Source: a virus (lineage: Duplodnaviria > Caudoviricetes). Taken from it: DNA of 35,482 nt. How positions within the stretch are numbered: the stretch's first letter is position 1; each line of letters begins with the position of its first letter. The notes beneath the pieces were generated by a model that saw nothing but the letters and a program-made list of their open reading frames with translations, was not told where the DNA came from and did not search any database. The stretch lies in IMG/VR virus record IMGVR_UViG_3300025270_001763, positions 1 through 35,482 of that record. The stretch is one strand, 5' to 3'. This document shows, piece after piece, positions 2-28,851 of this stretch. The position numbers and the translations under genes were made by a program.

Positions 2-202
2 CTGGAAGATTCCAAGCAGACATTTATAGGGTGGGTTACTGATTTAATGGTAAACCCCGAAAAGAGACACGAGCTTGGGATGGAGATGGAGAAAATGCGT
101 TTAGCAATGGATAAGGAGAGGGAGACATTATCTGAATGGCATCAATATGAAGATAAGGTTATTGATCAACCATTTTTAACTCCTGATTCGGTAAAAGAAT
201 GA
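2..202 (+). CDS. Hypothetical protein, 5'-truncated C-terminal fragment (LEDSKQTFIGW...YEDKVIDQPFLTPDSVKE)
   Basis: Open frame from position 2 to TGA at 200-202, which overlaps the next ATG (ATGA). Translated by hand. Confidence 0.75.
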   Translation: MEDSKQTFIGWVTDLMVNPEKRHELGMEMEKMRLAMDKERETLSEWHQYEDKVIDQPFLTPDSVKE

Positions 203-987
203 GGGGTAATCGACCAATGTATGAAAACGCAAGAAAAATTATGCTGCCATCTATGCATCGCAGTGGCCATCATGCTATTGCGGTATGGCTTTTACATCAG
301 GCTGAAGGAGTAGATAAGTTTGATATTAAAACTATGACTGAGTGGTGGTTCTATTTGAAAGTTTCAAAGGGAATAAATTTTATGTTCAATAACCCCTTGA
401 AAAAGGAACAAAAAGACAGGAGCAAGTTTAATGGTATCATGAGGGGAATCTGGGATGGAACTATGGCTAGGGTTGAAAATTGTGACCCTAAAGATACCAA
501 GCTTTTTATTGGAACTCATGAGCGCGAAACCTTAAAAGAAGTTGCTTGGCACTGTGGAAAATCAGATATCTTCTATAAAACAGACATGGTTTTAGTAATT
601 AGGAGCTTTCACAACTGGGTTGCAAGCTGTGTTCGAAAAAAAGACACCGAAGAGAAAGACATAGATATTTATATTGATCATTGTAAACACGCGCTTGATG
701 AAACAGTACCGCACATTCTCTATGATAGGTGGTTCACCAGCAAAGAATACAGAAAAGAAATAACTGACTCTCTTGGTTTACATTTTACAGACGCCGCTCT
801 TAATCAAGCATCTCCGTTTGGAGGCGGGAGTTCCTTTGATGCACTGGTTTATTTGAAGAACGCTAGTGAGATGGATGTTTTAAATAGGTATAAGCAGATG
901 GAAGATAACGAAGATTATCAACAGATTATTCAAAATAACGAAGAGGCTATAGACCTCAGTAACCAATTATTCGGGAAAGCATTATGA
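199..987 (+). CDS. Sulfotransferase-like protein (alternative start ATG 217)
   Basis: N-terminal MHRSGHHAIAVWL resembles the 5'-PAPS-binding loop; RSFHNWVAS resembles the 3'-phosphate-binding R-x7-S motif. Confidence 0.6.
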   Translation: MRGNRPMYENARKIMLPSMHRSGHHAIAVWLLHQAEGVDKFDIKTMTEWWFYLKVSKGINFMFNNPLKKEQKDRSKFNGIMRGIWDGTMARVENCDPKDTKLFIGTHERETLKEVAWHCGKSDIFYKTDMVLVIRSFHNWVASCVRKKDTEEKDIDIYIDHCKHALDETVPHILYDRWFTSKEYRKEITDSLGLHFTDAALNQASPFGGGSSFDALVYLKNASEMDVLNRYKQMEDNEDYQQIIQNNEEAIDLSNQLFGKAL

Positions 988-1490
988 CTAAACACGCACT
1001 CTTTTTAAAATGGTGGCTATTTTTTACAGCCGTATGTGTAGGTTTTATTTACGCGATTAGTGTCGGCGCTATAGAAACCTTATGGGATAAAGATGCGACC
1101 AAGCTCAGTTTTGTCCTGTTGGTCTTGTTTGGTTCTGTGTCGGCATGGTGTGGTTACAAGACGTGGATGCTTAGTAGATTTCTTGACAGTGGAAGAGAGG
1201 ATGAGCATCTTGTTGAAAAGATAGATCATCTTATAGAAGTAGGTTGGTTCGCTAGTGATTTGTGCCTAACGGTAGGAATGATAGGAACCGTATCCGGTTT
1301 TATTATGATGCTTTCTGGGTTTTACACTGTAGATGTTTCACAGATACAAACCATTCAGGAATTAATAAAGCAGTTAGGCGCAGGTATGTCCACAGCATTA
1401 TATTCGACGCTAGTGGGTTTAATTTGTAGCGCTCTCTTAAAGATTCAATATTTCAATTTGAACCAAGCAATAGATAGAATCAGAAAATGA
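984..1490 (+). CDS. MotA/TolQ/ExbB proton-channel family membrane protein
   Basis: Two N-terminal hydrophobic helices, then LTVGMIGTVSGFIMML and GMSTALYSTLVGL, matching the two conserved channel helices and both conserved Thr residues. Confidence 0.9.
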   Translation: MTKHALFLKWWLFFTAVCVGFIYAISVGAIETLWDKDATKLSFVLLVLFGSVSAWCGYKTWMLSRFLDSGREDEHLVEKIDHLIEVGWFASDLCLTVGMIGTVSGFIMMLSGFYTVDVSQIQTIQELIKQLGAGMSTALYSTLVGLICSALLKIQYFNLNQAIDRIRK

Positions 1491-2089
1491 AAAGAGAATA
1501 CCACACCAACTTAGCGTTTCTGGATGTCCTGTTTAACACGCTGCTATGCTTTGCGGCGCTGTTCGCCATGTCTTTTATCTTGATCAATCCGTCGAAAAAA
1601 GACAACAACGTAGTTGAGAAGGGTGAGTTTGTAATAGTAATGACATGGCCGAAAGAGATGGATAATGATGTAGATATCTATGTTGAAGATCCAGAGGGTA
1701 ATTTAGTTGCTTTTATGAGACGAGAAGAAGGATTGATGCATTTAGACAGAGACGATCTGGGAAGAAGAAACGATGTAGTTCAGACAGAGTTCGGTGAAAT
1801 TGAATACGATGAAAATAGAGAGATAGTCACCTTAAGAGGAATTATGCCCGGCGAATATGTGATTAATGTACACATGTATATGAAAAGAGAAGAGAGCCTG
1901 TTGACACCGGTAACTGTACAGCTTGATAAGATTAATCCCTATTCGACAGTTATGATAAAGAGAGTAACATTGGGAGTTAGTGGAGAAGAGAAGACGGCTT
2001 TCAGGTTTATCCTAAATAACGATGGCGATGTAGTAGAAATCAATGAGTTACAAAAAACTCTAGTGGAACAACAAGGACCAACACTATGA
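1487..2089 (+). CDS. ExbD/TolR/MotB-like single-pass partner with a YfaP/DUF2135-like extracytoplasmic domain
   Basis: NLAFLDVLF places Asp13 at the start of a TM helix as in ExbD/TolR. W-x6-DVDIYVEDPEG...LDRDD...E...PGEYVINVHMY resembles the YfaP-like beta domain. ATGA overlap with the ExbB-like gene. Confidence 0.7.
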   Translation: MKREYHTNLAFLDVLFNTLLCFAALFAMSFILINPSKKDNNVVEKGEFVIVMTWPKEMDNDVDIYVEDPEGNLVAFMRREEGLMHLDRDDLGRRNDVVQTEFGEIEYDENREIVTLRGIMPGEYVINVHMYMKREESLLTPVTVQLDKINPYSTVMIKRVTLGVSGEEKTAFRFILNNDGDVVEINELQKTLVEQQGPTL

Positions 2090-2700
2090 GCATTGCGTTA
2101 ACCTTTTTTATTATTAGCAGTTTACTGCTCTGGATTGTTATCGGATCTAAGGGCCACTGGGGATTAAAAGCGGCTACAATTGCTTTTGTTCTATATTTTT
2201 GTTTATCAATCAACCTTTCCTTGAGCAACTTGCTGGGTTGGCCTTCAGACCAATCCCTGCCTGAAGAATTTCAGGTACACTGGATTGAGATAAAAGAGCC
2301 GAATAAAAGAACAGGCGATAAGGGCTGTGTCTATGTATGGGCTACTGGTAGCGAGGGGGAACATCACAAAAAGGACGGCTGGAGAACCTTACTTGTGTAT
2401 TTTCAAAATTACGATCCCACGGAGCCTAGAGCTTATAGACTTAATTACTCAAGAGAGTTGCACGAAAGATCACAAGAAGCCTTGGGTAAAATTAAAAATG
2501 GAGAAGCTGTCGGAGGTAAAAACAAAGGGCGGGGTAAAGGCAAGGGCAAAGGCAAGGGTGAAGGCGACGGTAAAGGTAAGGGTAAAGGGAGGGGAGATGG
2601 AAAAAACGGAAAAGAGGGCGGCGGTAGTTTGAGCAATAGTGACGATATCATTTTTCATGACTTGCCCCCATCTAAGCTTCCAGACAAGGTTACAGAATGA
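2086..2700 (+). CDS. Membrane protein (two N-terminal TM helices) with Gly/Lys-rich low-complexity linker
   Basis: Hydrophobic N-terminus, LGWP motif, (GK)n tract, short Pro-containing C-terminus. ATGA overlaps on both sides. Confidence 0.8.
   Translation: MSIALTFFIISSLLLWIVIGSKGHWGLKAATIAFVLYFCLSINLSLSNLLGWPSDQSLPEEFQVHWIEIKEPNKRTGDKGCVYVWATGSEGEHHKKDGWRTLLVYFQNYDPTEPRAYRLNYSRELHERSQEALGKIKNGEAVGGKNKGRGKGKGKGKGEGDGKGKGKGRGDGKNGKEGGGSLSNSDDIIFHDLPPSKLPDKVTE
2512..2625 (+). repeat. Degenerate 6-nt repeat (GGY-AAR) encoding GKGKGKG...
   Basis: ggtaaaggcaagggcaaaggcaagggtgaaggcgacggtaaaggtaagggtaaaggg, with varied synonymous codons. Confidence 0.85.
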
Positions 2701-3710
2701 AAAAGAAGGCGATTATATTTGGCGTCACAGGACAAGACGGTTCTTATTTATCAGAACTGTTATTAGAGAAGGACTACTATGTTATAGGTGTTTCCAGAAG
2801 GACTAGTACGTCAAATACGTCCAGAATTGATCATTTGCTTGAGAACAAAGATTTTATCGTTGAGAGCGGGGATGTTTTAGACTTCGCAAATATTTATGAT
2901 ATTCTATGGAGACACCACGCCGACGAAGTGTACAACCTAGCGGCCCAGTCACATGTTGGAATTTCTTTTAAACAACCTCTTGTAACTTGGGACATTACGG
3001 CTAAGGGGTGTTTAAACGTTTTAGAGGCTGTAACCAAGCTCAGCAGAAAACCTAGATTTTATCAGGCTAGCTCAAGTGAAATGTTTGGTGATCAATATAC
3101 CACTTCCGAATCTGGAGATAAATATCAATCAGAAGACACGCTTTTTAACCCCCAGTCTCCGTATGCAGTAGCTAAACTTGCCGCGCACAAAATGACAGAG
3201 CTTTACAGAAAGACACACGATTTACATGCAAGCTGCGGCATATTGTTTAATCATGAGAGTGAGCGCAGGGGTGAGAATTTCGTAACCAGAAAGATCTCTA
3301 AGTACATTTCCACGTTTGATCCCCTTGGTCCAAACCTATACCTAGGAAACCTCGATTCATGTAGAGACTGGGGCCATGCTAAAGATTATGTCCGAGCCAT
3401 GTGGCTTATGCTGCAACAGGATAAACCGGATACATATGTTATCGCCACAGGGGTTACTCATTCCGTAAGAGATTTTGTTAGAGAAGCCTTTAAGTGCGTG
3501 GGCGTAGACGATTATGAGAAGTTTGTCGAGATAGACCAAAAACAAATCAGACCTTCCGAAGTCCTGTATTTAAAAGGAGACTGTTCTAAAGCAAAGGAGG
3601 CGATAGGGTGGATGCCAGAGATTTCATTTGAGGACTTGGTATCAATTATGGTTCAACATGATATAGCGAGAATAACAAATGACACACAAGCCACTTATTC
3701 TGTCAAATGA
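2697..3710 (+). CDS. gmd: GDP-mannose 4,6-dehydratase
   Basis: GVTGQDGSYL, NLAAQSHV, YQASSSEMFG, SPYAVAK (YxxxK), GILFNHESERRGENFVTRKI and RDWGHAKDYV are all Gmd signature motifs. Confidence 0.96.
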   Translation: MKKKAIIFGVTGQDGSYLSELLLEKDYYVIGVSRRTSTSNTSRIDHLLENKDFIVESGDVLDFANIYDILWRHHADEVYNLAAQSHVGISFKQPLVTWDITAKGCLNVLEAVTKLSRKPRFYQASSSEMFGDQYTTSESGDKYQSEDTLFNPQSPYAVAKLAAHKMTELYRKTHDLHASCGILFNHESERRGENFVTRKISKYISTFDPLGPNLYLGNLDSCRDWGHAKDYVRAMWLMLQQDKPDTYVIATGVTHSVRDFVREAFKCVGVDDYEKFVEIDQKQIRPSEVLYLKGDCSKAKEAIGWMPEISFEDLVSIMVQHDIARITNDTQATYSVK

Positions 3711-4599
3711 TGAAATTGTAGAGATTATTACAGTTCAAGAATGCATGGACATTGTGGAGAAGTTATTTGAAAATCTAGAGGATTCTCAAATGCCGCCTAA
3801 GATTTATCTGGATATTCCAGATGGAGATTTTAGAGCCATGCCAGCAATAGTGGGTAATACGGCTGGAATCAAATGGTGCGGAGTACATTTAGACAAAACA
3901 AGAAAAAAAAGAAAGATTAACATTTTTGCCAAGGTTTTGATTAACGATGTTGATTCTGGAAAACTTCTAGCGATCATGGATGGGGAAAAGATTACAGCTA
4001 TTAGGACCGCTGCCGTTACCGGAATAGCCACTAAATATTTATCGAAGAAAGACGCGAGCATTGCTGCATTTATTGGGTGTGGTAATCAAACTCAATATCA
4101 AATTCAGGCGGTATGCCACGCTAGAAAGATAAAACAAATTAGACTTTTCGATTTTGATTATACTCGATGTGATATATTGAAAACTTATTTTTCCAAAGAT
4201 TACGACGTTGTTATTTGTGATGACGGCGAAGAATGTATAAAGGGTGGAGATATTATTACAACCTTAACCCCTTCTGTTTACGGGTTTGTAAAACACGATT
4301 GGTTAAAAAGCTCGGTACATATTAATGCTATTGGCGCAGACGCTCAAGGAAAAAGAGAGCTAGATTTATCTGTATTAGACGGCATGAGTTTGGTAGTATA
4401 TGATAATTGGGAACAGTGTTCACATTCTGGAGAGATCCAGTATGTGGACTATAAGGATAAGAAACAGCCATGGGTATCTTTAGGTGATATTGTTTCGGGA
4501 AAAGAGGAAGTCAGAGGAGATCAGATTCTATTTGATGCTACTGGACTGGCCATAGAAGACGTGGTTACCGCTAGACATATTTACGAAAAGGTTAAGTAA
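3679..4599 (+). CDS. Ornithine cyclodeaminase/mu-crystallin family protein, resembling archaeal-type alanine dehydrogenase
   Basis: QMPPKIYL, GDFRAMPA, GIKW, ITAIRTAA, FIGCGNQ, HINAIGAD..GKRELD and FDATGLAIED. Confidence 0.9.
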   Translation: MTHKPLILSNDEIVEIITVQECMDIVEKLFENLEDSQMPPKIYLDIPDGDFRAMPAIVGNTAGIKWCGVHLDKTRKKRKINIFAKVLINDVDSGKLLAIMDGEKITAIRTAAVTGIATKYLSKKDASIAAFIGCGNQTQYQIQAVCHARKIKQIRLFDFDYTRCDILKTYFSKDYDVVICDDGEECIKGGDIITTLTPSVYGFVKHDWLKSSVHINAIGADAQGKRELDLSVLDGMSLVVYDNWEQCSHSGEIQYVDYKDKKQPWVSLGDIVSGKEEVRGDQILFDATGLAIEDVVTARHIYEKVK

Positions 4600-8039: not shown

Positions 8040-10274
8040 ATGCCAAACAATATTCCAGACCAAGACAGGGCCGAAGCCGCATTTGTTACTTGGAGTGACG
8101 AGTCTAGCAAAGAGCAGGCGCTTGCTAATGTGCAAGGCATCCTTGACGATTATGACGGCATACAGAGATCTTCAGCCTATGCTCGTAGATCTTTTCTTGA
8201 TATAGAGCCGAACATTTCTGTTAGAACCGGGTTTGACAGACGTGATTATGACAGATTTAGAAGCGGCGAATCGGTTCCACAAAAACAAAAAGACGCTATA
8301 CGTATGTGTATGGCAGCTTATGATCGCGTCGGTCTTGTTAGAAACGTTATCGATTTAATGGGTGATTTTGCATGCCAAGGAATTAACTTAGTCCATCCTA
8401 ACAAAAGGATTGAAAAATTTTACAAGGCTTGGTTTATCAGGATAAATGGCAAGGAAAGGTCGGAACGGTTTTTAAACCTTCTTTACAGGACGGGTAATGT
8501 AATTCTCAAAAGAAGAACCGCCAAGATAACTAAAAAAATAGAAGAGGAGCTTAGAAGATCGTCTGGAAAAGCCGACATAGTTCCAGAGTCTATCAAAATA
8601 AACAGAAGAGAGATACCTTGGAAGTATGATTTTCTCAACCCGATGTCCGTAGAGGTATTAGGCCAAGAGCTTGCTACCTTTGTTGGCAAGCCGCAGTTTG
8701 CTTTAAAGATATCCAATCTTCTAAAACGACATATTACAAACAGCAGCAAAAATCCCTATCACCAAAGATTGCTAGCTCAACTACCTGCCGATGTTCTCAA
8801 GGCGGTGAAGCAGGGGATTAGTATTCTTCCATTAGACGTAGATAAAACCTCCGTGTTCTATTACAAAAAAGATGATTGGCTAACATGGGCCAACCCTATG
8901 ATTTACGCCATCTTGGACGATATTTTAATGTTGGAAAAAATGAAGTTGGCAGATATTTCTGCTTTAGACGGGGCTATTTCTAATATTCGACTTTGGCGGA
9001 TCGGAGATTTAGAGAATAAAATTCTCCCCACCAAGGGTGCGATTAACAAGTTAAGAAACATATTGGCTGGAAATGTTGGCGGGGGCACAATGGATCTGGT
9101 ATGGGGTCCAGAAATTGATTTTAAAGAATCAAACACTCAAGTCTACAAGTTTCTTGGGTCTGAAAAATATCAACCGGTTCTTACCAATATCTATGCTGGG
9201 CTGGGCATCCCTCCTACTCTGACGGGCCTAGCAAGCGGAGGCAGCGGTGGATTTACCAACAACTTCATCTCTCTTAGAGTTTTACTTGAGAGGTTGGAGT
9301 ACGGTAGAAATATACTGATGACCTTTTGGCGTCAAGAAATAGAGATAATCCAAAAGGCGATGGGTTTTCGTTTTCCCGCGACTGTGCATTTTGATCAAAT
9401 GACTTTATCTGATGAATCCTCAGAAAAGAATCTTTTGATTCAGTTAGCAGATAGAGACATCATTAGCGCCGAGACTGTTCAAGAAAGGTTTGGAGAAGTG
9501 CCGGATATCGAGAAAATTAGAATCAAGCGTGAAGCTAAAGAGCGTCAAAATGAGAGAATGCCTCAGAAATCTGGTCCCTATCATAATCCACAGCACCTTA
9601 ACGACCTTGAAAAGATTGCCTTACAAAAGGATCTTATTGCTCCAGAAGATGTAGGAATTGTGCCTTGTGATGAAACTGGAGATCATCCCTTTACCGACCC
9701 TGATGACCGACGAAGCGATCAACAAATTCAAGAAAAGAAGGAGGAGGTTCAAGACAAGCAAGACGAAAGAGACCAAAAGAAATTTGACAATCAGCAAAAA
9801 CAAAACCCGCCAAACGAAGGGTATAACCCCAAAGGCAGGCCGGAAGACGGCAGACCTAAAAACGCTAAAGATAAAACGAAGAGAAAGCAAAAAGAGGTTA
9901 AGCCGCGCGTTGCCGCAAGTACTGATTTTGCCAATACGCTTTTATGGGCTACTAAAGCCCAGAAGCAAATCTCAGATATTGTTAATCCCGCATTACTAGC
10001 GCACTACGGTAAGAAAAATCTTAGAGCATTAACCAAGCAAGAGACCGACGAAGCGGAGTATATTAAGCTGTGTGTGTTATCCAACATCTCACCCTTCGAC
10101 GAAATCGATGCTCGTACTGTCAAAAGTATTTTAGACCAGAATCTAAAAGCTGACCCTGCTTTAATTTCACTTATATCTAGCATCAATAACGACTTTGTTG
10201 AAGCTAATATTAGAAATCCCAGCCTCGAAGAGTCCCGCCAGATCCAGATTTCTGCATACGCAATATCTCGTTAA
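8040..10274 (+). CDS. Portal protein
   Basis: Lies between terL and the protease. Portal-like features include LVRNVIDLMGDF, IYAGLGIPPTL, and a charged/Pro-rich tail with a GRP motif. Confidence 0.85.
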   Translation: MPNNIPDQDRAEAAFVTWSDESSKEQALANVQGILDDYDGIQRSSAYARRSFLDIEPNISVRTGFDRRDYDRFRSGESVPQKQKDAIRMCMAAYDRVGLVRNVIDLMGDFACQGINLVHPNKRIEKFYKAWFIRINGKERSERFLNLLYRTGNVILKRRTAKITKKIEEELRRSSGKADIVPESIKINRREIPWKYDFLNPMSVEVLGQELATFVGKPQFALKISNLLKRHITNSSKNPYHQRLLAQLPADVLKAVKQGISILPLDVDKTSVFYYKKDDWLTWANPMIYAILDDILMLEKMKLADISALDGAISNIRLWRIGDLENKILPTKGAINKLRNILAGNVGGGTMDLVWGPEIDFKESNTQVYKFLGSEKYQPVLTNIYAGLGIPPTLTGLASGGSGGFTNNFISLRVLLERLEYGRNILMTFWRQEIEIIQKAMGFRFPATVHFDQMTLSDESSEKNLLIQLADRDIISAETVQERFGEVPDIEKIRIKREAKERQNERMPQKSGPYHNPQHLNDLEKIALQKDLIAPEDVGIVPCDETGDHPFTDPDDRRSDQQIQEKKEEVQDKQDERDQKKFDNQQKQNPPNEGYNPKGRPEDGRPKNAKDKTKRKQKEVKPRVAASTDFANTLLWATKAQKQISDIVNPALLAHYGKKNLRALTKQETDEAEYIKLCVLSNISPFDEIDARTVKSILDQNLKADPALISLISSINNDFVEANIRNPSLEESRQIQISAYAISR

Positions 10275-14331: not shown

Positions 14332-15369
14332 ATGGCTCTAGCCTTAGCAGATAGAGTTAAAGAAACTACCACTACAACTGGAACGGGCACGATTAGTCTC
14401 GCTGGGGCTGTAACTGGATTTCAACCATTTGTAGCTAGCGTAGGAGACGGTAATACTACATACTACGCACTCGAAGATACCAACGGTACGGGCTGGGAAG
14501 TCGGCCTTGGCACTGTTACCGACGCATCTCCAGACACCCTTTCTCGCGCCACTATTTTAGACAGTAGTGTTCAGGCAACCGCGACTCTTACATTTGGCGA
14601 TACGGAATTTGATGATGTCAATAACGGAACTCTTGCGCTGATAGACACTGTTGGCTTAAGCAAAACCTATACAATCAGGAATGATTACGGAGCGACGGGG
14701 GCGACAGAATATAACGCTGGCGGATCAAGAGGGGCTGCTGCCGCAAACCTTGCGCAAGCCGTGGAAAGTTCTAATGGGCATAACGGAACTATCTACGCCA
14801 TGGACAGTTCCAATGTGCGCTTCTCGTCGGGTGGATACGATTTCTCAGACGGCGTGGTTAACTTCAAACAGGCTACAGGCGGCACGGTAGGAAATACTAC
14901 TATCACTACAGCAGCCAGCTTCGATAGCTGCACTGATGTAAATGTTGGGTCTGCCTTTACAGGAGGCGGCGGCTCTGCTATCACCCTCAGTTCAGGCACC
15001 CATTCTGTGTTCTGCACATACCCAGCCAATAAAGCTGTTTTCCTCGATGCAAACGGCGCCACCGAGATCACTCTTTCTAAATCACCGATCATACCGTACA
15101 CGACAATCACTGGGGATACAACAATTACAACCGCCAACGTGGTTGTTTTTGCAAACGCTACTAGTGGATCAATAGATGTAACTATGTACGCGGCAACTTC
15201 AAATGGAGGAAGGACTGTAACTATTAAGAAGACGGACAGTAGCTCCAATACTGTGAGCATTCTTAGGGCGGGAAGCGAAACTATAGACGGAGCAATTTCT
15301 GCGACACTATACCACCAAAACGAGTCTGTAACTTTAGTCTCAGATAACAGCAACTGGTTTATTGTCTAA
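14332..15369 (+). CDS. Virion fibre/appendage protein (MALxLADRVKETTTTTGTG family) with inserted module
   Basis: Conserved N-terminus, WEVGLGT and VFCTYPA motifs; GGAGG RBS; Thr/Gly/Ser-rich. Confidence 0.8.
   Translation: MALALADRVKETTTTTGTGTISLAGAVTGFQPFVASVGDGNTTYYALEDTNGTGWEVGLGTVTDASPDTLSRATILDSSVQATATLTFGDTEFDDVNNGTLALIDTVGLSKTYTIRNDYGATGATEYNAGGSRGAAAANLAQAVESSNGHNGTIYAMDSSNVRFSSGGYDFSDGVVNFKQATGGTVGNTTITTAASFDSCTDVNVGSAFTGGGGSAITLSSGTHSVFCTYPANKAVFLDANGATEITLSKSPIIPYTTITGDTTITTANVVVFANATSGSIDVTMYAATSNGGRTVTIKKTDSSSNTVSILRAGSETIDGAISATLYHQNESVTLVSDNSNWFIV
14569..14967 (+). repeat. ~133-aa inserted module, copy 1 (VQATATLTFGDTEF...AFTGG)
   Basis: About 70% aa identity to 22112-22519 by manual alignment; exact DNA blocks aagcaaaacctatacaat and tcagacggcgtggttaa are shared. 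Confidence 0.92.
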
Positions 15370-15411
15370 CTTCTACAAATATACAGTCACCAAATAAATT
15401 GGAGTAATAAG

Positions 15412-17514
15412 ATGTCATATAGCCCAAAAGCCTTTGAAATTACAACTCTAGGGACATCGCAAATTGGGAAGTTTATCAGTACGCATGGCACTACTGGCGA
15501 TGTAATTATACCAGATGATGATAAGTTCTCGTTTGGTACTGGAAGCGATGCTTCTATTTACTTCGACGCAACCAATTTGGTCATCGCGGATGAGAACATC
15601 CCTGTTCAGATAGGCCATTCTTCTAGCACGGTTACAATTGCCGGTAACCTTACAATTAACGGAACTACAACCACTGTTAATTCTACAACTCTAACTATTG
15701 ATGATAAGTTGATTGAGCTTGCTCATTCACCTTCTGGTTCCGAAGGAGCCGATACCGATATAGACGGTGGCGGTATTATTCTTAAGTCTTCTGATAGCGA
15801 TAAGAGTATTACTTGGGTAAACTCTACCGACTCTTGGACGTTTGACCAAGGCATAGATGTTTCTGACCTTAACATCATCAACGTTGGGGATATAGACTGT
15901 GATAGCATTAGCATCGCTGATGCCGCTGTTGGTCTTAACATTGCTTTCGGTGGGAACACTGGCACAAATAAGATTACCCTGACAGACAATCTCGCTGACG
16001 CTTTAAACATCACTGAAGGAAGCAATTCCTACATGAAGTTTATAACCGCCGACTCTGGCTTTCCTACAGTTACATTCGGTGTTGACGACACCGGGGTTGA
16101 TGTAAGGCTCTATAGCGCTACCGCCAGTGAGGGTGTTCTATATGACGCTTCTGAAGATGAACTGGCTCTTCTACTCACAACGAAATTGAAATTTCATGAT
16201 GTCGGTGGCGACGAAGAAATCTTTGCTTCTGCCAATGGTCATCTAGAAATCAACGCTGGGACCACGTTGGACATAACCGCTCCAACGGTAGATATCAATG
16301 CTTCCACTGGTGTCACAATCGACACAGATACAGTTACTGTTGCATCGGCTAATTCAACAGATCCGGTAATGATACTTAAAAACACGAATACTGACGCCAA
16401 CGGCGCTAGGCTTCGTTTTGTTAAAGATGCTGGGGAAGCCGGTGCTGCTAGTGACATATCTGGACTTATTGAATTCTACGCTGATGATGCTTCTCAAGAC
16501 CAAGTATTGTTTGCCAAGGTAGAAGCCGCAGTTGCCGTCCACACAAACGGTCAAGAGGGTGGCAAGCTAACTCTTGGCGTTGCGTCTCATGACGGAGAAA
16601 TGAATTCAGGTCTCATACTGACAGACGGTAGCGCGGAAGACGAAATTGATGTTACCGTTGGTAATGGAACTGCTTCAGTAACAACCGTTGCTGGTAATCT
16701 TACTGTAACTGGTGATGTGACAATTAGCGGTGATGACCTGACAATGGGAACAAACACCGATAAATTCATATTGGTAGCAGACGGTACGAATTTCAATTCG
16801 GTATTATCTACTGGTGATGTAATCATATCTAATGATGGTTCATCCGCCATACAAGCAAATGTTGTAGATGGTACTCATATTGCCCTTGGCTCAGACGAGC
16901 AGGGCGACATTATGTATTACGATGGCACAAACTGGGCAAGACTTGTTCATGGGACAGACGGACAGTTCTTAAAGACGCAGGGTGATAGTGCTAATCCGGT
17001 TTGGGCGGCAGCGACAGTTAGTAGTCTTGCTTGTGACGACCTTAGTGTAGGTGACGCGGCTGTCACGGTTTCCACTAGTGTTGGTAATATCACTATTGAA
17101 ACGCAGGCTACTGATACCGACATTATCTTCAATGTAGACGATGGCGGCTCTCAAATTACTGCTTTAACTCTTGATGGTAGTGACGATGGCGCAGCCATAT
17201 TCAAGAGTACCATAAAGGGTACTGTGTTTAAGCCTGCGGTTGAAGTAGTTTCTAGCGCCAACGTAACAGTCAGTAAAGGCCATACCGCAATTACTACCGC
17301 TGGTTCAAACAGAACCGCTACTATGCCAGAAGCGACTGCTGCACTTGTAGGTGCTACATACACCATTAAAAAAGTAGACAGTGGTTCAGGCAATATTTCT
17401 GTTACAGCGGAGGGTGACGGTCTTATTGATGGTGGAGCAACCGTTGTGCTTTATCATCAATTTGAAAGTGTCACGGTAGTTTGTAGAGCCGCCGACGTTT
17501 GGGACATTGTATAA
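15412..17514 (+). CDS. Fibre-like virion protein (700 aa)
   Basis: GNLTINGTTTTVNSTTLTIDDKLIEL, GDIMYYDGTNWARL..GTDGQFLK..ANPVW fibre motifs; C-terminal IKKVDS...IDG...ESV...W module. Confidence 0.8.
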   Translation: MSYSPKAFEITTLGTSQIGKFISTHGTTGDVIIPDDDKFSFGTGSDASIYFDATNLVIADENIPVQIGHSSSTVTIAGNLTINGTTTTVNSTTLTIDDKLIELAHSPSGSEGADTDIDGGGIILKSSDSDKSITWVNSTDSWTFDQGIDVSDLNIINVGDIDCDSISIADAAVGLNIAFGGNTGTNKITLTDNLADALNITEGSNSYMKFITADSGFPTVTFGVDDTGVDVRLYSATASEGVLYDASEDELALLLTTKLKFHDVGGDEEIFASANGHLEINAGTTLDITAPTVDINASTGVTIDTDTVTVASANSTDPVMILKNTNTDANGARLRFVKDAGEAGAASDISGLIEFYADDASQDQVLFAKVEAAVAVHTNGQEGGKLTLGVASHDGEMNSGLILTDGSAEDEIDVTVGNGTASVTTVAGNLTVTGDVTISGDDLTMGTNTDKFILVADGTNFNSVLSTGDVIISNDGSSAIQANVVDGTHIALGSDEQGDIMYYDGTNWARLVHGTDGQFLKTQGDSANPVWAAATVSSLACDDLSVGDAAVTVSTSVGNITIETQATDTDIIFNVDDGGSQITALTLDGSDDGAAIFKSTIKGTVFKPAVEVVSSANVTVSKGHTAITTAGSNRTATMPEATAALVGATYTIKKVDSGSGNISVTAEGDGLIDGGATVVLYHQFESVTVVCRAADVWDIV

Positions 17515-17530
17515 TTTATGAGGTCGTAAA

Positions 17531-18790
17531 ATGGTGCAATCAATAACGCTACAAAACGTAGCAGATACCGCTATCGTCAATAACGATATATTGGGGCAGA
17601 TTTGTTTTGCCGCCCCAAATGAATCTAGCGGTACTGATTCGATTTTAATCTCTGCGTCTATTTTTGCTAGGTCGGAAGGAACTTTTGCAGCGGATAATAA
17701 TGCTACAGAACTGGTATTTACAACGGCGGCTACTGAATCAGCGGCCCCCGGAGCTACTAATTATGACATGACCCTTAGTTCTGCTGGAGTTCTCACACTT
17801 ACTGGTGCTATCGAGCTAGGCCATGCTTCGGATACTACGCTTGCAAGAGCGTCATCGGGTGATTTAAACGTAGAAGGGAACCTTATTTATCGAGCAGGGG
17901 GAACCGATGTTCCTGTGGCAGACGGTGGCACTGGAGTTTCAACCCTCACGGATGGCGGAATTTTATTAGGTTCGGGGACTGGCGCTATTACGGCGCTAGC
18001 AGTTTTAGGCGATGGTGTTATCGTAGTTGGCGACAATTCCACCGACCCCACGACAATTACCGCATTCACTGCCTCAGACGGAGTTCTTAAACATGAAGTT
18101 GGCGGGCTGGAACTCGACATATCCGGTATTGCTATTGGCGATGTAATAGCAGGCACGGGCACTGGGGCGGCTGGTATTGTCACCTCCACCGGGCATGCCG
18201 ATGGCCAAGTTCTTACCTTGCAGGCCGATGGAACCGCTGACTGGGAAGCCGCTTCTGGAGGTGGTGGTAGCGGCGATGTTTCTGCCGGAAGCAACTTCAC
18301 AACCGCTGGTGTGATCATGGCCGCTCATGGTGACGACAAGACCATCGACGAACCCAACACACTCCTAACCACTGGCGGTGAGGCGATGCTTGTTAGTTCT
18401 GCAAACACAACTTCGTTTGCTGTTGATGGCGCAGATGGGGACGGTAACTGTGCTTGGACATTTACTGCGGGAACTGGCGGCGCTGGCAACAATAATCAAG
18501 CTTCTATAAAAGTTATCGCTGAATCTTCCGCCAACGCAAATATATATCTAGGTGATGCCACTTTACCAACCATAGGTGGAATCAAATACAAAAACTCTAA
18601 TGACTCAATGCAGCTTGTAACAAACAATGCTATTGCGGTGGCTATTGACTCTGATAAAATTGTTGATTTTAAGAGTGGCGTAATAGATAATTCAGCGGAA
18701 AATTATAATGCTGGAACCAACGTTCTTAAGATAAAGGTTGGGGGAACAGATTATTGGCTTACCCTTCTCGAAGAAGGAGGTGGTATGTAA
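17531..18790 (+). CDS. Fibre-like virion protein (419 aa)
   Basis: DVPVADGGTG, GQVLT..ADGTADW and GGGGSGDV fibre-shaft motifs. Confidence 0.78.
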   Translation: MVQSITLQNVADTAIVNNDILGQICFAAPNESSGTDSILISASIFARSEGTFAADNNATELVFTTAATESAAPGATNYDMTLSSAGVLTLTGAIELGHASDTTLARASSGDLNVEGNLIYRAGGTDVPVADGGTGVSTLTDGGILLGSGTGAITALAVLGDGVIVVGDNSTDPTTITAFTASDGVLKHEVGGLELDISGIAIGDVIAGTGTGAAGIVTSTGHADGQVLTLQADGTADWEAASGGGGSGDVSAGSNFTTAGVIMAAHGDDKTIDEPNTLLTTGGEAMLVSSANTTSFAVDGADGDGNCAWTFTAGTGGAGNNNQASIKVIAESSANANIYLGDATLPTIGGIKYKNSNDSMQLVTNNAIAVAIDSDKIVDFKSGVIDNSAENYNAGTNVLKIKVGGTDYWLTLLEEGGGM

Positions 18791-19038
18791 TGATAACAAC
18801 AATTCATGTAGATAGAGATAGAATAGTTTCCAATCGTGACAAATATAATAAACCTGTATTTATTGTTGAAAAAGATGGGGTGATTTTACTTGAAGCTGAT
18901 AAGATCGAGATACTTGGACCTTCAAAGTTGGTATATCAACCCGATAATCCTCACCCAGTCTTGAGTGAAAGATATGATAATAATCGCTCTGTAAGGGCTT
19001 GGATTGAAACAGAGTCTGAAGTAATTAAAACAAAATAG
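18790..19038 (+). CDS. Conserved small phage hypothetical protein (IHV...GP..LVY.PD.P...AWIET); likely start ATG 18790
   Basis: TAATG overlap with the previous stop and GGAGG upstream; in frame with track ORF 18754..19038. Confidence 0.7.
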   Translation: MITTIHVDRDRIVSNRDKYNKPVFIVEKDGVILLEADKIEILGPSKLVYQPDNPHPVLSERYDNNRSVRAWIETESEVIKTK

Positions 19039-19047
19039 GAGAATATA

Positions 19048-19419
19048 ATGGCGGAAATAACAGCTAATTTTGGCGGTAAGAATATAACGATTACTTATCC
19101 AGATGATCTTCTGGGCAAAGCGGAGGAGGCGTTTGTAGCAATGAATCCTTCTACATGGGATACCGCTGTGGTACACAAGAAAAGTACAATGACAATAGAT
19201 GATCAAGATGAAAGCGAAATAGATCTTACCGATGAACAAATATCTGAGCTAAAGTATGATTTTACTGTGGGTTGTATTTTGAGCTATGTAAAGAGAACAA
19301 TAAAATCCTATGAGACGCAGTTGGTTGTACAGCAGGCTAAAAATACTGCCGATGAAGCATTAAATCAAATCAATGTAGATATTGAAGATGGTGGCTCTTC
19401 CGGCCCGTCCTTTGTCTAG
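19048..19419 (+). CDS. Hypothetical acidic protein, possibly a fibre assembly chaperone
   Basis: AGGAG RBS; small helical protein following fibre genes. Confidence 0.6.
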   Translation: MAEITANFGGKNITITYPDDLLGKAEEAFVAMNPSTWDTAVVHKKSTMTIDDQDESEIDLTDEQISELKYDFTVGCILSYVKRTIKSYETQLVVQQAKNTADEALNQINVDIEDGGSSGPSFV

Positions 19420-19435
19420 AATGTAGGGGTATCAT

Positions 19436-20110
19436 ATGCTAGGCTTTCATGCGTTTAGCGAAGCCCCGATTTCTGATCTGGTAGGGGATATCAAAACTGG
19501 CAGTGCGTCACTATCCAGCACATTGACAGTTGATGCTTTCGCGCCGCTTCAGTCCTTTAAGGCATCTATACAAACCGACTGTAGTATTGTTAGCGATGGG
19601 TTGGTCTTAAAGCTTGGACAGACTGACATAGTAGCTGCGAGCAATCCGTTTGATTCCGGCTTTAATTACGGATTCCAGTTTGGGGGAACCGCATTAAAGG
19701 GTATCGGTACGATTAGGCAGAACGAGCTTAATTGTACGGCTACCATTGCGGCTGACGGCACTGTAATATTGGGCGATGTCACTTTTGCGGGACTTGCCAC
19801 TTTACAAAGTCAAACGAATTTTACTGGAAAAAGTGTATTATTAACTAGTGGGAAGGTCGGGTTTAATCTAGGCGGCGGCGGCAGATTTGATTCAGCAGTA
19901 CTCACTAGCGTCTTTGAAGCAGCAGATACTGTATTATTTACTTTGTATCTCGATAAAGGCGTGGACCTATCTAGTTATATTGACAAAGAAAGACTACTGA
20001 CTCTATATACAGATAAATCATTAACTTCAAATCTTTATGTTGATAAAAACCTCTCTTCCAGCAAATATGTAGACAAAGCACTAGAACAAATCTTGGTGAG
20101 AGAAAGATAA
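19436..20110 (+). CDS. Virion structural protein (MLGF..FSEAPIS N-terminus) with C-terminal YxDK repeats
   Basis: N-terminal motif typical of phage appendage proteins; five 10-aa repeats at 19946-20077. Confidence 0.7.
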   Translation: MLGFHAFSEAPISDLVGDIKTGSASLSSTLTVDAFAPLQSFKASIQTDCSIVSDGLVLKLGQTDIVAASNPFDSGFNYGFQFGGTALKGIGTIRQNELNCTATIAADGTVILGDVTFAGLATLQSQTNFTGKSVLLTSGKVGFNLGGGGRFDSAVLTSVFEAADTVLFTLYLDKGVDLSSYIDKERLLTLYTDKSLTSNLYVDKNLSSSKYVDKALEQILVRER

Positions 20111-20418
20111 TGCCAGCAAACGAAATACATGTAAATGATGTCGGAACCCTGTTTACTCTCACTATAAAAGACGGAGATAGCGCGGTTAATATTTCTTCTG
20201 CAACGACAAAAAAGATTATTATCAAAAAGCCATCTGGAACAAAACTAACATATAGCACCGCGTTTGTTTCTGATGGTACTGACGGCAAGATGAAATACAA
20301 CGCTGTATCGGGAGACCTTGATGAAGCGGGAACTTATAAATTACAGTCATATGTAATAATTTCTGACGGCACGTTTTACACAGATATAACCTCATTTAAA
20401 GTTTATAGAAACCTGTAA
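20110..20418 (+). CDS. BppU-N/Ig-like adaptor protein
   Basis: NDVGTLFTLTI...KKPSG...DGTDGKMKY...DLDEAGTY pattern. Confidence 0.62.
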   Translation: MPANEIHVNDVGTLFTLTIKDGDSAVNISSATTKKIIIKKPSGTKLTYSTAFVSDGTDGKMKYNAVSGDLDEAGTYKLQSYVIISDGTFYTDITSFKVYRNL

Positions 20419-20429
20419 GGAGGTGGTCC

Positions 20430-20939
20430 ATGACTTGGCAAAATGAGATGTCCTTGATTGTTCGCCATCTGATTAACGATCTGGATTCTTCTAGCTACAC
20501 CTTTACTCACGACAGAGTAGAAGAATCCATTTTGGTAGCCACACAACTCATGTTAAATGAGATAGATTTTGAGCAAACATACACAGTAGATGTTGACTCC
20601 TCCTCTTTATCCCCTGATCCCACTACGCTTTCCAACAAAGACGACCCCTTTATTACTTTGGTCTCTCTGAAAACAGCACATTTGCTGCTGGGCAGTGAAA
20701 TTAAAACTAACTCTCTTAATGCTATCTCTTTGAAAGATGGGCCATCTTCTATCGATCTTAGGGGTATAGTGCAAGGATTAAAGATACTATACGAAGACTT
20801 AGGCGCAAGGTATGAACATGCGAAGCTAGCTTATCAAATGGGCACCAGTGCAGGACAAGCTATACTTTCGCCCTACTCTCCGGGTAGTGACGCGGTGTCT
20901 AGAACAAATCTCTCAAGTAGATTAGGATGGTTTGAATAA
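20430..20939 (+). CDS. Head-tail connector/adaptor (neck) protein
   Basis: Helical N-terminus VRHLINDLD..YTF, ISLKDGPSSIDL hairpin, 169 aa; AAGGAGGT RBS. Confidence 0.65.
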   Translation: MTWQNEMSLIVRHLINDLDSSSYTFTHDRVEESILVATQLMLNEIDFEQTYTVDVDSSSLSPDPTTLSNKDDPFITLVSLKTAHLLLGSEIKTNSLNAISLKDGPSSIDLRGIVQGLKILYEDLGARYEHAKLAYQMGTSAGQAILSPYSPGSDAVSRTNLSSRLGWFE

Positions 20940-23886: not shown

Positions 23887-24378
23887 ATGGCTATCAATTT
23901 ACCACCCACCGCTTTTTCTAAATTCAATGAAGCTATCAAGCTTTTTGAAAAAACCGCAACTTTGGTTTATCCAGAGAAAAAAGAGCGGTGTGGCAATTGC
24001 ATAACTAATACTATGGGAGGAAGGTCTTCCAACTTCTACAGGACTGGTGGACCCACGCCATTTGATAGAGGATCTATTTGTCCTTTATGTAATGGTGAAG
24101 GTTTTAAACTGATAGACGCTAAGGAATCCGTTCAGCTTAGAATTTATCACAGAAAAAGGGACTGGGTCGATGTTGGTATCCAAGTAGATACTCCTAACAA
24201 TGTTATCCAAACCGTTGGATACATGTCTGATTATACCAAGCTAACCAAAGCTAAAGAGCTACTAGTTGACATAGGCGGATATAATCAAGTGAGATATAAA
24301 AGACTTGCCGAGCCTTTTGTTCAGGGGTTTAAACAAAACCCGGTACAGTATGTTGTGATATTTTGGGAGACGGTTTGA
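23887..24378 (+). CDS. Putative head-closure/neck protein with Zn-finger
   Basis: CGNC...CPLCNGEG; position among the neck genes. Confidence 0.55.
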   Translation: MAINLPPTAFSKFNEAIKLFEKTATLVYPEKKERCGNCITNTMGGRSSNFYRTGGPTPFDRGSICPLCNGEGFKLIDAKESVQLRIYHRKRDWVDVGIQVDTPNNVIQTVGYMSDYTKLTKAKELLVDIGGYNQVRYKRLAEPFVQGFKQNPVQYVVIFWETV

Positions 24379-26089: not shown

Positions 26090-26095
26090 TTTTTT

Positions 26096-26105
26096 GGTGT
26101 ATAAT
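26096..26105 (+). promoter_or_regulatory. Putative late promoter motif GGTGTATAAT
   Basis: Identical to the 13526 copy; upstream of the major tail gene with an AAGGAG RBS. Confidence 0.7.
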
Positions 26106-26143
26106 ACCATAGCAAATAGCCTTTCGCAAAGGAGAGAAAACAA

Positions 26144-27256: not shown

Positions 27257-27267
27257 TCGGTAAATAA

Positions 27268-27344
27268 TTAAGAGTCAGTGCGTGTTGCGATAGCCCAAAA
27301 TATTGATAAAACGGATAGGCAAGTGGACGTGCTGACTTTTTTAA
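27268..27344 (+). terminator. Long hairpin with U-tract after the major tail gene (terminator/attenuator or structured RNA)
   Basis: AAGAGTCAGTGCGT pairs with ACGTGCTGACTTTT (14 bp, 3 G-U); inner TTGC/GCAA helix. Confidence 0.65.
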
Positions 27345-27423
27345 CTCTATAGGGAATTGTATTGGAAAAGGAAAAGGACCATGAAGATGACTCATTTAGA
27401 ATTCCCGTTAGTAAGCGTCTCAA

Positions 27424-28841: not shown

Positions 28842-28851
28842 GGAGGAACGA

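What the first reader, a model, noticed from the sequence alone, without database searches (positions are those of the whole stretch)
984..2700. Phage-encoded Ton/Tol-like ion-motor triplet (ExbB-like + ExbD-like/YfaP-domain + GK-linker membrane protein)
Seen: three genes joined by ATGA overlaps. Gene 1 keeps both ExbB/TolQ/MotA channel helices (GMIGTVSG; TALYSTLVGL). Gene 2 has the Asp at the start of its single TM helix (AFLD13VLF). Gene 3 has TM anchors and a long (GK)n spacer. Established: ExbB-ExbD, TolQ-TolR and MotA-MotB are 5:2 ion-driven motors that need this Asp and act through a third transducer (TonB/TolA); the ZorAB anti-phage motor is also related. Atypical here: the partner carries a YfaP/DUF2135-like domain instead of an ExbD or OmpA-like domain, and the putative transducer is Gly/Lys-rich rather than Pro-rich. 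Inference: a self-contained viral membrane motor, possibly for superinfection exclusion, nutrient uptake, PMF manipulation or counter-defence. I know of no characterised function for it.
Basis: partly seen in the sequence, partly recalled or inferred. Interest (0 to 1): 0.85.

Follow-up and report, generated by a model that had tools for sequence, protein, structure and literature searches.

The report
Phage-borne minimal three-part membrane motor
A marine phage carries three overlapping membrane genes that travel as one unit through many unrelated phages and, in bacteria, often sit beside PQQ alcohol-dehydrogenase genes; they likely form an unnamed, stripped-down ion-driven motor with a predicted calcium-type metal-binding head that would do mechanical work in the host periplasm.

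Summary
The three ORFs, their ATGA overlaps, the ExbB/MotA channel helices and Asp13 are real. The trio is obligate: 84 of 88 phage loci and 74 of 80 bacterial loci hold all three genes in order, including isolated Rhizobium phages of four kinds; all three genes are under purifying selection. Gene 1 is a four-helix MotA/ExbB-family subunit lacking a cytoplasmic torque domain. Gene 2's head is predicted TerD-like (Z 9.9) with invariant acidic residues, not a DUF2135 member. Gene 3 is not TonB/TolA-like: no SHLS motif in 163 homologues; two membrane helices plus a predicted OB fold, the GK tract being a variable loop. It is not phage-only: 9 of 300 sampled genomes carry it and all 9 encode PQQ alcohol dehydrogenase (background 64 of 300); phage loci have no PQQ genes. 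Best reading: a metal-binding, ion-driven periplasmic remodelling motor, serving lanthanide/calcium-PQQ enzymes in bacteria and acting on envelope proteins in infected cells; the phage role is untested. The scan found this trio before on other DNA (three notes). Ten literature searches found no description. New variant of a known kind; interest 0.68.

The parts
984..1490 (+). Gene A: MotA/TolQ/ExbB-family subunit, 168 aa, four hydrophobic segments (residues 12-30, 38-56, 93-111, 134-152), very short cytoplasmic loop
   Evidence: PF01618 over cut-off; profile's best solved match is a MotA, E 6.1e-7; family hydropathy
1287..1289 (+). Thr102 of A, equivalent by motif to ExbB Thr148
   Evidence: Thr in 82 of 85 phage and 68 of 78 bacterial copies, Lys in 10 bacterial; ExbB residues named essential in PMC12905483
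1407..1409 (+). Thr142 of A, equivalent by motif to ExbB Thr181
   Evidence: Thr in 85 of 85 phage and 78 of 78 bacterial copies
1487..2089 (+). Gene B: single membrane helix (residues 8-32) with Asp13, then a periplasmic beta-sandwich
   Evidence: AlphaFold2 model, mean pLDDT 88.4; one hydrophobic segment
1523..1525 (+). Asp13 codon of B, the predicted ion-binding residue (ExbD Asp25 equivalent)
   Evidence: Invariant in 136 of 136 rows of alignment A6; 88 of 88 and 79 of 79 loci
1616..2071 (+). Predicted TerD-like head of B (residues 44-195) with invariant W54, D61, D63, D89, D90, G92, E112: a likely Ca2+/lanthanide site
   Evidence: Foldseek E 1.4e-4 to 2qng; VIA-align Z 9.9, rmsd 3.5, 128 aligned to 2qz7 and Z 9.2 to Ca-binding TerD 2kxt, next row 6.1; conservation
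2086..2700 (+). Gene C: two-helix membrane hairpin (residues 2-49) plus periplasmic domain
   Evidence: AlphaFold2 model, mean pLDDT 77.7; invariant K28, G51, R115 in 61 rows
2260..2667 (+). Predicted OB-fold barrel of C (residues 59-194)
   Evidence: Strand order b1-b2-b3-helix-b4-b5; the rows that span this region are OB folds as I recall them (eIF5A, SSB, Rvb DII, SilF, Teb1), best Z 6.0, rmsd 3.4, 75 aligned: modest scores
2524..2646 (+). Gly/Lys-rich loop of C (residues 147-187), unstructured and variable
   Evidence: Low pLDDT; 0-49 aa in homologues; a natural variant lacks 6 bases at 2545

Best explanation
The three genes are a conserved unit that likely builds a minimal ion-driven inner-membrane motor of the MotAB/ExbBD kind, whose predicted metal-binding head and OB-fold third subunit would do mechanical work on periplasmic proteins of the infected cell. 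Shown: the three genes, their linkage, the conserved Asp/Thr channel residues, the absence of a large cytoplasmic domain in A, and the tie of bacterial copies to PQQ dehydrogenase genes. Predicted: B's TerD-like head and C's OB fold. Inferred: five A surround two B helices; ions pass through Asp13 and the Thr102/Thr142 ring and turn the B pair; with no cytoplasmic torque surface the output must be periplasmic; Ca2+ or a lanthanide bound by D61/D63/D89/D90/E112 gates or is carried by the head; C sits at the rim as the fixed arm that holds a client. In bacteria the likely client is the lanthanide/calcium-PQQ dehydrogenase pathway (loading, stripping or handing on metal in a compartment without ATP). 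In phages, which carry no PQQ genes nearby, the same force generator would act on envelope proteins, most plausibly opening clients for a periplasmic protease or wall hydrolase, to shut out later phages or prepare the envelope. I put the motor identity at about 0.85, metal binding at about 0.7 and the whole account at 0.4.
For: Motor residues. Obligate trio: 84 of 88 phage loci, the 4 others cut by a contig end; 74 of 80 bacterial loci; A and C of 7 of 7 Rhizobium-phage regions match profiles built without them. Selection. Folds; TerD's two Ca sites are given in PMC8779313 and its W..DLD..HxGDN..DDE motifs line up by eye with B's invariant residues. PQQ link: 40 of 80 loci have a PQQ-system gene within the fetched flank, 11 of 25 sequence groups; pedC, a SoxH-like gene, a beta-propeller gene or the dehydrogenase itself abut A with gaps of -4 to 11 bases in 11 loci of 4 groups; 9 of 9 strong carriers against 55 of 291 non-carriers have TIGR03075, Fisher p 5.7e-7, 3e-4 with five similar rows merged; 12 of 22 neighbouring dehydrogenases show the D-x-D motif that PMC11996626 treats as lanthanide-diagnostic. 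A copy from the phage side of the tree sits beside the PQQ ABC genes in MarineAlpha6-type genomes, so phage-type copies can fill the same place. Envelope links in phages: trypsin-like protease just upstream in 6 of 6 16-3-like cassettes and in L020; C runs in frame into a phage lysozyme in 5 contigs; the 16-3-like cassette follows the endolysin on the same strand.
Against: No complex, ion flux, metal binding or phenotype has been shown. The TerD link rests on fold only: profile comparison of B with five TerD-family sequences is not significant (probability 0.7%) and the ligand mapping is by eye. C's OB scores are modest (Z 4-6) and an OB fold tells no function. Half of the bacterial loci have no PQQ-system gene in the flank (40 of 80), including whole groups next to trehalose or housekeeping genes, and 55 of 64 PQQ-dehydrogenase genomes manage without the trio. 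Five bacterial copies (L174-L178) lack Asp at the aligned position and have Lys at residue 17, and ten have Lys for Thr102. The protease and lysozyme links each come from one to three phage lineages; most phage flanks are unrelated metabolic or unknown genes, and this window has neither a protease nor a lysis gene beside the trio. The fused lysozyme has its own ribosome-binding site and ATG, so the fusion may be a lost stop codon.
Confidence: 0.4

Rival explanations
1. Auxiliary metabolic cassette: the phage carries the trio to keep the host's lanthanide/calcium-PQQ alcohol oxidation, and so its energy supply, running during infection.
For: Strong PQQ link of bacterial copies; the phage-side MarineAlpha6-type copy (56-58% identical to B) lies beside PQQ ABC genes; phage flanks are host-like genes such as GDP-mannose dehydratase, GlpX, DnaK, ClpS.
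Against: No PQQ-system gene in 88 phage loci or this window. In the family of the genome holding a 16-3-like prophage only 2 of 151 genomes have B, both in 16-3-like cassettes, so those hosts seem to have no resident system to top up. Phage copies are more diverse than the sampled bacterial ones and do not nest among them, unlike a recent capture. Temperate 60-kb phages keep all three genes.
Confidence: 0.2
2. Calcium-gated ion leak rather than a force generator: the complex senses periplasmic metal or envelope damage and lowers the membrane potential, for superinfection exclusion or lysis timing, in the manner of ZorAB or a pinholin.
For: A has almost no cytoplasmic domain (141 aa in some phages); position after the endolysin in 16-3-like phages; C-lysozyme fusion; weak ZorA profile matches over the shared helices; ter genes are tied to phage inhibition in the abstract of PMC8123226.
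Against: Thr ring and Asp are kept as in working motors; a leak does not explain a conserved third subunit or operon fusion with PQQ ABC genes in bacteria; in P10VF and RHph_N3_19 the trio lies among replication genes; ZorA scores are far below cut-off (24.8 against 500).
Confidence: 0.2
3. Alternative Ton-like energiser: ABC powers outer-membrane uptake (lanthanide chelate, PQQ) through TonB-dependent receptors or the DUF3108-like lipoprotein encoded after C.
For: Two TonB-dependent receptors directly upstream of A in L106; a lipoprotein-like fourth gene follows C in 31 of 80 bacterial loci; 5 of 5 small trio genomes tested have receptors.
Against: C lacks SHLS and a long Pro-rich stalk, and its domain sits about ten residues from the membrane; the same 5 genomes have 2-5 ordinary ExbD/TolR genes each; receptors did not appear among the 45 commonest neighbour clusters; the fourth gene is absent from all 88 phage loci.
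Confidence: 0.12
4. Non-conducting scaffold: a degenerate motor that only anchors a metal-binding domain in the periplasm.
For: Five copies lack the aligned Asp, ten have Lys for Thr102.
Against: Asp13 is kept in every phage copy examined (88 of 88) across sequences only about 30% identical.
Confidence: 0.08

Closest known systems
ExbB-ExbD-TonB and TolQ-TolR-TolA
   Same: Channel helices with two threonines, a single-helix partner with the N-terminal Asp, a third membrane protein in the same operon.
   Different: A has four hydrophobic segments and almost no cytoplasmic domain; B's head is a TerD-like beta-sandwich, not the ExbD/TolR fold; C has two helices, no SHLS motif, no Pro-rich stalk and a predicted OB fold.
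MotA-MotB / PomA-PomB flagellar stator
   Same: Four-helix A subunit (best solved-structure match of the A profile is a MotA); Asp helix.
   Different: No torque-generating cytoplasmic interface, no OmpA-like wall-binding domain, an extra subunit, no flagellar neighbours. The phage motA/motB pair of PMC8290583 has a wall-binding MotB and is a different thing.
ZorA-ZorB (Zorya)
   Same: Same helix pair; phage-conflict setting.
   Different: No long ZorA tail, no OmpA-like ZorB domain; carried by the phage rather than against it.
TolQ-like + transpore-helix vWA motors (PMC12204202, section 8)
   Same: Precedent for a TolQ-like pentamer whose Asp-helix partner carries a non-ExbD periplasmic domain, predicted to rotate directly.
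   Different: There the head is vWA, usually as a gene pair; here it is TerD-like, with an obligate two-helix OB subunit, and common in phages.
TerD (tellurite/stress, Ca2+-binding)
   Same: Predicted fold of B's head and the pattern of acidic residues.
   Different: TerD is a soluble protein as I recall it; B is membrane-anchored with a hairpin insertion; sequence profiles do not match significantly.
CcmE (recalled)
   Same: Membrane-anchored periplasmic OB fold that ferries a cofactor: a model for what C may do.
   Different: C has two helices and its C-terminal consensus has no His/Tyr haem motif; CcmE was not among the listed fold matches.

Membership tests
MotA/TolQ/ExbB family (gene A) | Pfam PF01618 over the curated cut-off | tested here: met
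   34.9 bits against 22.9
MotA/TolQ/ExbB family (gene A) | Two pore-lining threonines in Gly-rich helices | tested here: met
   T102 82 of 85 and T142 85 of 85 phage copies; G98, G101 invariant
5:2 ion-driven motors | Partner with one membrane helix and a conserved Asp near its start | tested here: met
   D13 in 88 of 88 phage and 79 of 79 bacterial loci; not aligned in 5 of 11 further genomes
5:2 ion-driven motors | Pentamer:dimer assembly and ion flux | not testable with these tools
Ton / Tol-Pal | Transducer with SHLS motif in a single helix (PMC12905483) | tested here: not met
   0 of 163 C homologues have S-x3-H-x6-L-x3-S; two helices
Ton / Tol-Pal | Long Pro-rich or helical stalk and TonB/TolA C-terminal domain | tested here: not met
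   Domain begins about ten residues after helix 2; Gly-rich tract is an internal loop with no Pro in this copy
Ton / Tol-Pal | ExbD/TolR periplasmic domain on the Asp-helix subunit | tested here: not met
   PF02472 hits only 5 of 136 rows, best E 0.001; the model is an all-beta sandwich closest to TerD
Flagellar stator MotAB | Cytoplasmic torque-generating interface in A (PMC12505986) | tested here: not met
   About 35 residues between segments 2 and 3 here, nearly none in 16-3-like copies
Flagellar stator MotAB / ZorB | OmpA-like wall-binding domain on B | tested here: not met
   No such match for B in Pfam, NCBIfam or PADLOC; predicted fold is a beta-sandwich
Zorya | ZorA with long cytoplasmic tail | tested here: not met
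   A is 141-249 aa in 85 phage copies; ZorA model 24.8 bits against 500
Zorya | zorC/D/E effectors in the operon | tested here: inconclusive
   Only four window proteins were scanned against PADLOC; flanking genes identified by Pfam are unrelated
YfaP / DUF2135 | PF09906 over cut-off | tested here: not met
   15 bits against 22; 10 of 136 rows at E up to 0.1
TerD | TerD fold | tested here: met
   Top two of 48,161 chains, Z 9.9 and 9.2, next 6.1; five Foldseek rows with E under 0.001, four titled TerD-like or SAV2460
TerD | Sequence family membership (PF02342) | tested here: not met
   No match for B; not among the 25 of 64 families shown for 136 rows; profile comparison probability 0.7%
TerD | Ca2+ ligands at residues 40-42, 78, 79, 89 (PMC8779313) | tested here: inconclusive
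   W54 and D61/D63 align with TerD W29 and D40/D42 in the weak profile alignment; D89/D90/E112 mapped by eye only; geometry not measured
Transpore-helix vWA motors | vWA domain on the Asp-helix subunit | tested here: not met
   No vWA match for B; all-beta model

The most novel reading that the evidence does not exclude
This is a virus-native class of 5:2 ion motor: an ATP-free, metal-gated protein remodeller of the periplasm that phages of many types use on the infected cell's envelope, and that bacteria have domesticated at least twice to load lanthanide or calcium into PQQ dehydrogenases.
Probability: 0.2. Interest if true: 0.92.

Novelty: new variant of a known kind. Interest (0 to 1): 0.68.

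Why it matters
Known MotAB/ExbBD-type motors drive flagella, outer-membrane uptake, envelope upkeep, gliding or anti-phage defence, and are cellular. Here a motor-like unit with two unclassified partners is kept by lytic and temperate phages and by about 3% of sampled genomes of one large phylum, where it tracks lanthanide/calcium-PQQ enzymes. If real it adds a branch to the 5:2 motor family, gives phages a way to tap the proton-motive force directly, and offers a candidate for how metal is handled for periplasmic quinoproteins. It is testable now: cultured phages (16-3, P10VF, RHph_N3_19) and cultured bacteria (Ideonella paludis, Thiothrix eikelboomii, Azohydromonas sediminis) carry it.

Tried and rejected
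Complex prediction (2 A + 2 B + C, C scored): no answer, score 0.03; the job was unlike the tool's calibration and is used neither way. Search for longer fused forms of C (390-2000 aa): none, weak evidence; the 300-aa lysozyme fusions lie below that range. tblastn of A and C against cultured phages: no match, yet profile searches find them, so these blanks were sensitivity limits. PHROGs has no family for A, B or C of this window above weak hits, and none for 11 Rhizobium-type A/B/C proteins; NCBIfam none for a bacterial A, B, C at 1e-8. ESM Atlas: only unnamed clusters for C, no usable named hit for its domain. B against TerD profiles: not significant. One search compared two alignments sharing rows and is circular; one search's scores for L023-L029 were circular too and are replaced. 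The IQ-TREE run did not finish; trees are FastTree only, unrooted, with long-branch warnings, and rows were the best 80 of each collection, so direction of transfer is not shown. Promoter and terminator scans equal chance (15 against 15.8; 3 against 3.7). Expression: no RNA holder listed; two guessed-RNA runs gave only short pieces. pqqC in 3 of 5 small trio genomes: no sign that the trio replaces PQQ synthesis. The La-repressed MotA/TolQ/ExbB genes MEALZ_3990-3991 (one passage of PMC6277846) could not be tied to this trio. Idea that the GK tract binds nucleic acid or wall by charge: rejected, as 46 of 87 phage loops are net acidic.
Full report
OBSERVATION. The window is a 35.5-kb piece of a tailed phage: PHROGs matches for terminase, major head protein, tail fibre and tape measure, all on the + strand. 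Eighteen public runs hold half or more of the sampled words of 900-2800, labelled marine or aquatic; six may be the source of this DNA. The three ORFs are as described: A 984-1490, B 1487-2089, C 2086-2700, each in an ATGA overlap. A passes PF01618. B and C match no family over cut-off in Pfam, NCBIfam, PHROGs or PADLOC.

AN OBLIGATE TRIO IN PHAGES. B has 1,216 homologues at 90% clustering among 1,308 candidates and 1,735 clusters at 50%. In IMG/VR 182 of 189 pattern matches were confirmed and 80 kept; with the first scan and seven GenBank regions I examined 88 phage loci. Eighty-four hold A, B and C in that order; three lose A and one loses the end of C at a contig edge. A-B gaps are 30 bases or less in 79 of 85 loci and B-C gaps in 78 of 87. 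Among cultured phages B occurs in 29 records, all Rhizobium or Sinorhizobium phages. I read seven regions: P10VF (Pootjesviridae, 156 kb), RHph_I1_18 (171 kb), RHph_N3_19 (69 kb) and four temperate 16-3-like phages; all genes there are annotated hypothetical or by number. Their A and C match profiles built without them (A: E 7e-13 to 9e-8; C: 9e-9 to 3.5e-4 among 2,684 ORFs; profile-profile probability 96.7-98.4%). In the 16-3-like phages unrelated genes and homing endonucleases sit between A, B and C, yet all three persist. dN is well below dS in 12 of 12 pairs for each gene, for example 0.032 against 0.57 for A and 0.09 against 0.57 for B between this window and L002. Flanks vary: GDP-mannose dehydratase, glycosyltransferases, GlpX, DnaK, ClpS, ClpP, many unknowns (70 flanking proteins scanned), so the trio moves as a cassette.

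SUBUNIT A. Four hydrophobic segments, best solved match a MotA (E 6.1e-7), then ZorA, PomA and TolQ. Thr102 and Thr142 correspond by motif to ExbB Thr148 and Thr181, which PMC12905483 calls essential together with ExbD Asp25 (passages read). Conservation: T142 85 of 85 phage and 78 of 78 bacterial copies; T102 82 of 85 and 68 of 78, with Lys in ten. An Asp (D37) between the first two helices is also nearly invariant. The loop that in MotA carries the torque interface (PMC12505986, passages) is about 35 residues here and almost absent in 16-3-like copies; bacterial copies have a longer one. Inference: phage copies have no cytoplasmic output.

SUBUNIT B. Model pLDDT 88.4: one helix (8-32) and a beta-sandwich. 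Asp13 is invariant in 136 aligned rows (fragments left out of that alignment). In the fuller count it is present in 88 of 88 phage loci, 79 of 79 bacterial loci, 142 of 150 representatives (the other eight unaligned there, most being N-terminal fragments) and 6 of 11 further genomes; the five exceptions (L174-L178) are one group with Lys at residue 17 and an Asp four residues earlier. The head is closest to TerD: Z 9.9 (2qz7, rmsd 3.5, 128 aligned) and 9.2 (2kxt), next 6.1, of 48,161 chains; Foldseek E 1.4e-4. PMC8779313 (passages) lists TerD's two Ca2+ sites. B's W54, D61, D63, D89, D90, G92 and E112 are invariant or nearly so in all sets and fall in the same order as the TerD motifs read from L181-L183. 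The profile comparison itself is not significant (0.7%), so this is a predicted metal site, not family membership.

SUBUNIT C. Model pLDDT 77.7: helices 2-20 and 25-49, then b1-b2-b3-helix-b4-loop-b5. In the second-look alignment the rows spanning 57-199 are proteins I recall as OB folds, best Z 6.0; scores are modest. The GK tract is the b4-b5 loop: median 31 aa in phage (0-49) and 20 in bacterial copies, net acidic in 46 of 87 phage copies, five or more GK in 15 of 87 and 0 of 75; no SHLS in 163. A natural variant lacks one GK unit. C is therefore not a TonB/TolA-type transducer.

BACTERIAL COPIES AND PQQ. The genome scan stopped at 600 matches (574 confirmed, about 800 estimated); the best 80 are mainly Alpha-, Beta- and Gammaproteobacteria, 74 with all three genes. 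An earlier scan note pointed to PQQ neighbours and I tested it. Neighbour clusters include PQQ dehydrogenase, TIGR03863 and TIGR03861 ABC parts, a TIGR03866-like propeller, PedF, SoxYZ-like and SoxH-like proteins and a sigma-54 activator. Forty of 80 loci, 29 of 49 long ones and 11 of 25 groups have such a gene; in 11 loci of four groups one abuts A within -4 to 11 bases. Of 50 trio genomes (50 of the 80) 41 have TIGR03075 over cut-off. In an even sample of 300 genomes from the phylum of G026 (centre left out), nine have a strong B with A and C, and all nine have TIGR03075, against 55 of the other 291 (p 5.7e-7, or 3e-4 with five similar rows merged). Two distant copies in that sample (G211, G310) lack the enzyme; G310's lies in a 16-3-like prophage. 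Twelve of 22 neighbouring dehydrogenases show the D-x-D motif, five have D-x-T, five gave no match to my pattern; PMC11996626 (passages) treats the extra Asp as lanthanide-diagnostic; I did not measure the background rate. Against a strict tie: 40 loci have no PQQ gene nearby and most PQQ genomes lack the trio. A DUF3108-like lipoprotein gene follows C in 31 loci and is absent from phage loci.

TREES. FastTree, midpoint-drawn, long-branch warnings. For B, 59 phage rows and four 'cell' rows form one starred set; of the four, L163 is a near copy of phage L085 with phage neighbours, L112 and L097 are short contigs of unclear nature, and L089 stands for the MarineAlpha6-type copies that lie head-to-head with the PQQ ABC genes. 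For A and C, 42 bacterial rows form one starred branch apart from the phage rows. So the phage family is old and diverse, not a scatter of recent captures from PQQ clusters, and a phage-side copy has been placed at a PQQ locus. No root, so the donor is not shown, and sampling favoured near relatives of this window.

WHAT THE PHAGE DOES WITH IT. No PQQ-system gene is found in 88 phage loci or the window. In the family of G310 only 2 of 151 genomes carry B, both in 16-3-like cassettes. Hints point to the envelope: a trypsin-like protease with an N-terminal hydrophobic stretch lies just upstream in all six 16-3-like cassettes seen and in L020, and one is annotated 2.3 kb downstream in RHph_N3_19; the 16-3-like cassette follows the endolysin on the same strand; in five contigs of one T4-like lineage C continues in frame into a phage lysozyme that keeps its own ribosome-binding site. 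Single bacterial loci add an L,D-transpeptidase (L189), an OmpA-domain gene (L097) and two TonB-dependent receptors (L106). Each hint is thin, and this window shows none of them: its neighbours are an unknown gene, GDP-mannose dehydratase and ornithine cyclodeaminase.

MECHANISM. I commit to a minimal ion-driven motor whose work is periplasmic and metal-linked: ions through Asp13 turn the B pair in an A ring, the TerD-like heads bind Ca2+ or a lanthanide, and C is the fixed OB arm holding a client. Bacteria would use it for PQQ-enzyme metal handling, phages for envelope proteins. Motor identity about 0.85, whole account 0.4; rivals are a metabolic cassette (0.2), a gated leak (0.2), a Ton-like energiser (0.12) and a scaffold (0.08).

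WHAT IS IN PRINT. Ten full-text searches gave no description of this trio; the library lacks most subscription papers. Nearest precedent: TolQ-like genes paired with Asp-helix vWA proteins (PMC12204202, section 8 read whole plus passages). PMC8290583 (passages) reports phage motA/motB and 70 marine viral contigs with motA or motB; its supplementary table, which I did not open, may include members of this family under the motA label, as may the 272 generic transporters of PMC12505986. Three earlier notes of this scan describe the same trio on other genomes; they are not independent support.

VERDICT. Real, conserved, unnamed; a new variant of the 5:2 motor kind rather than a member of Ton, Tol, Mot or Zorya. 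Interest 0.68.

Noticed in passing
L074:2768-3661, L084:2645-3553, L085:2454-3356, L086:2382-3278, L083 (cut): Subunit C runs without a stop into a phage lysozyme that has its own ribosome-binding site and ATG: a membrane-anchored and a free lysozyme could both be made.
   Followed up: partly
L174-L178 (G316, G312, G334, G217, G106): A bacterial group whose B lacks Asp at the aligned position and has Lys at residue 17; in L187 the trio runs into a metallophosphoesterase and a Ser/Thr kinase-Usp gene. Possibly another ion or a sensor.
   Followed up: partly
L136, L138, L150 and others: Ten bacterial A subunits replace the first pore threonine with lysine.
   Followed up: no
L114:9104-9832 and 30 other bacterial loci: A fourth, lipoprotein-like gene (weak DUF3108-like match) directly after C, absent from phage loci.
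   Followed up: partly
L189 and L190 (G301): One genome has two trios 40 kb apart: one after an L,D-transpeptidase and before a vWA-FHA protein, the other near aldehyde oxidoreductase and PQQ dehydrogenase genes.
   Followed up: partly
L106:2716-7281: Two TonB-dependent receptors lie directly upstream of A on the same strand.
   Followed up: no
L163 (Chloroflexota bin), L112: Contigs filed in bacterial bins whose genes are near copies of phage loci; L163 is probably a misbinned T4-like phage piece.
   Followed up: partly
window 199-987: 262-aa gene overlapping A with no family match; its HRSGHH stretch recalls a sulfotransferase P-loop (from memory); kept upstream of A in L001-L004.
   Followed up: no
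window 2697-4599: GDP-mannose 4,6-dehydratase and ornithine cyclodeaminase/mu-crystallin genes follow the trio; the dehydratase follows C in about 20 related phage loci.
   Followed up: partly
window 8040-28838: Most virion-region proteins (for example 8040-10274, 14332-20939, 23887-29784) have no PHROG match: an unclassified large tailed-phage group; close relatives lie on 161-174 kb contigs (L003, L012).
   Followed up: no
L066, L069, L088; L073-L087: ClpS directly follows C in three phage groups and ClpP lies near A in six groups; may only reflect common cargo of large marine phages.
   Followed up: no
L027:2243-3001, L028:3535-4077, L029:2252-2989: Homing endonuclease genes inserted between the trio's genes in 16-3-like phages without breaking them.
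   Followed up: no
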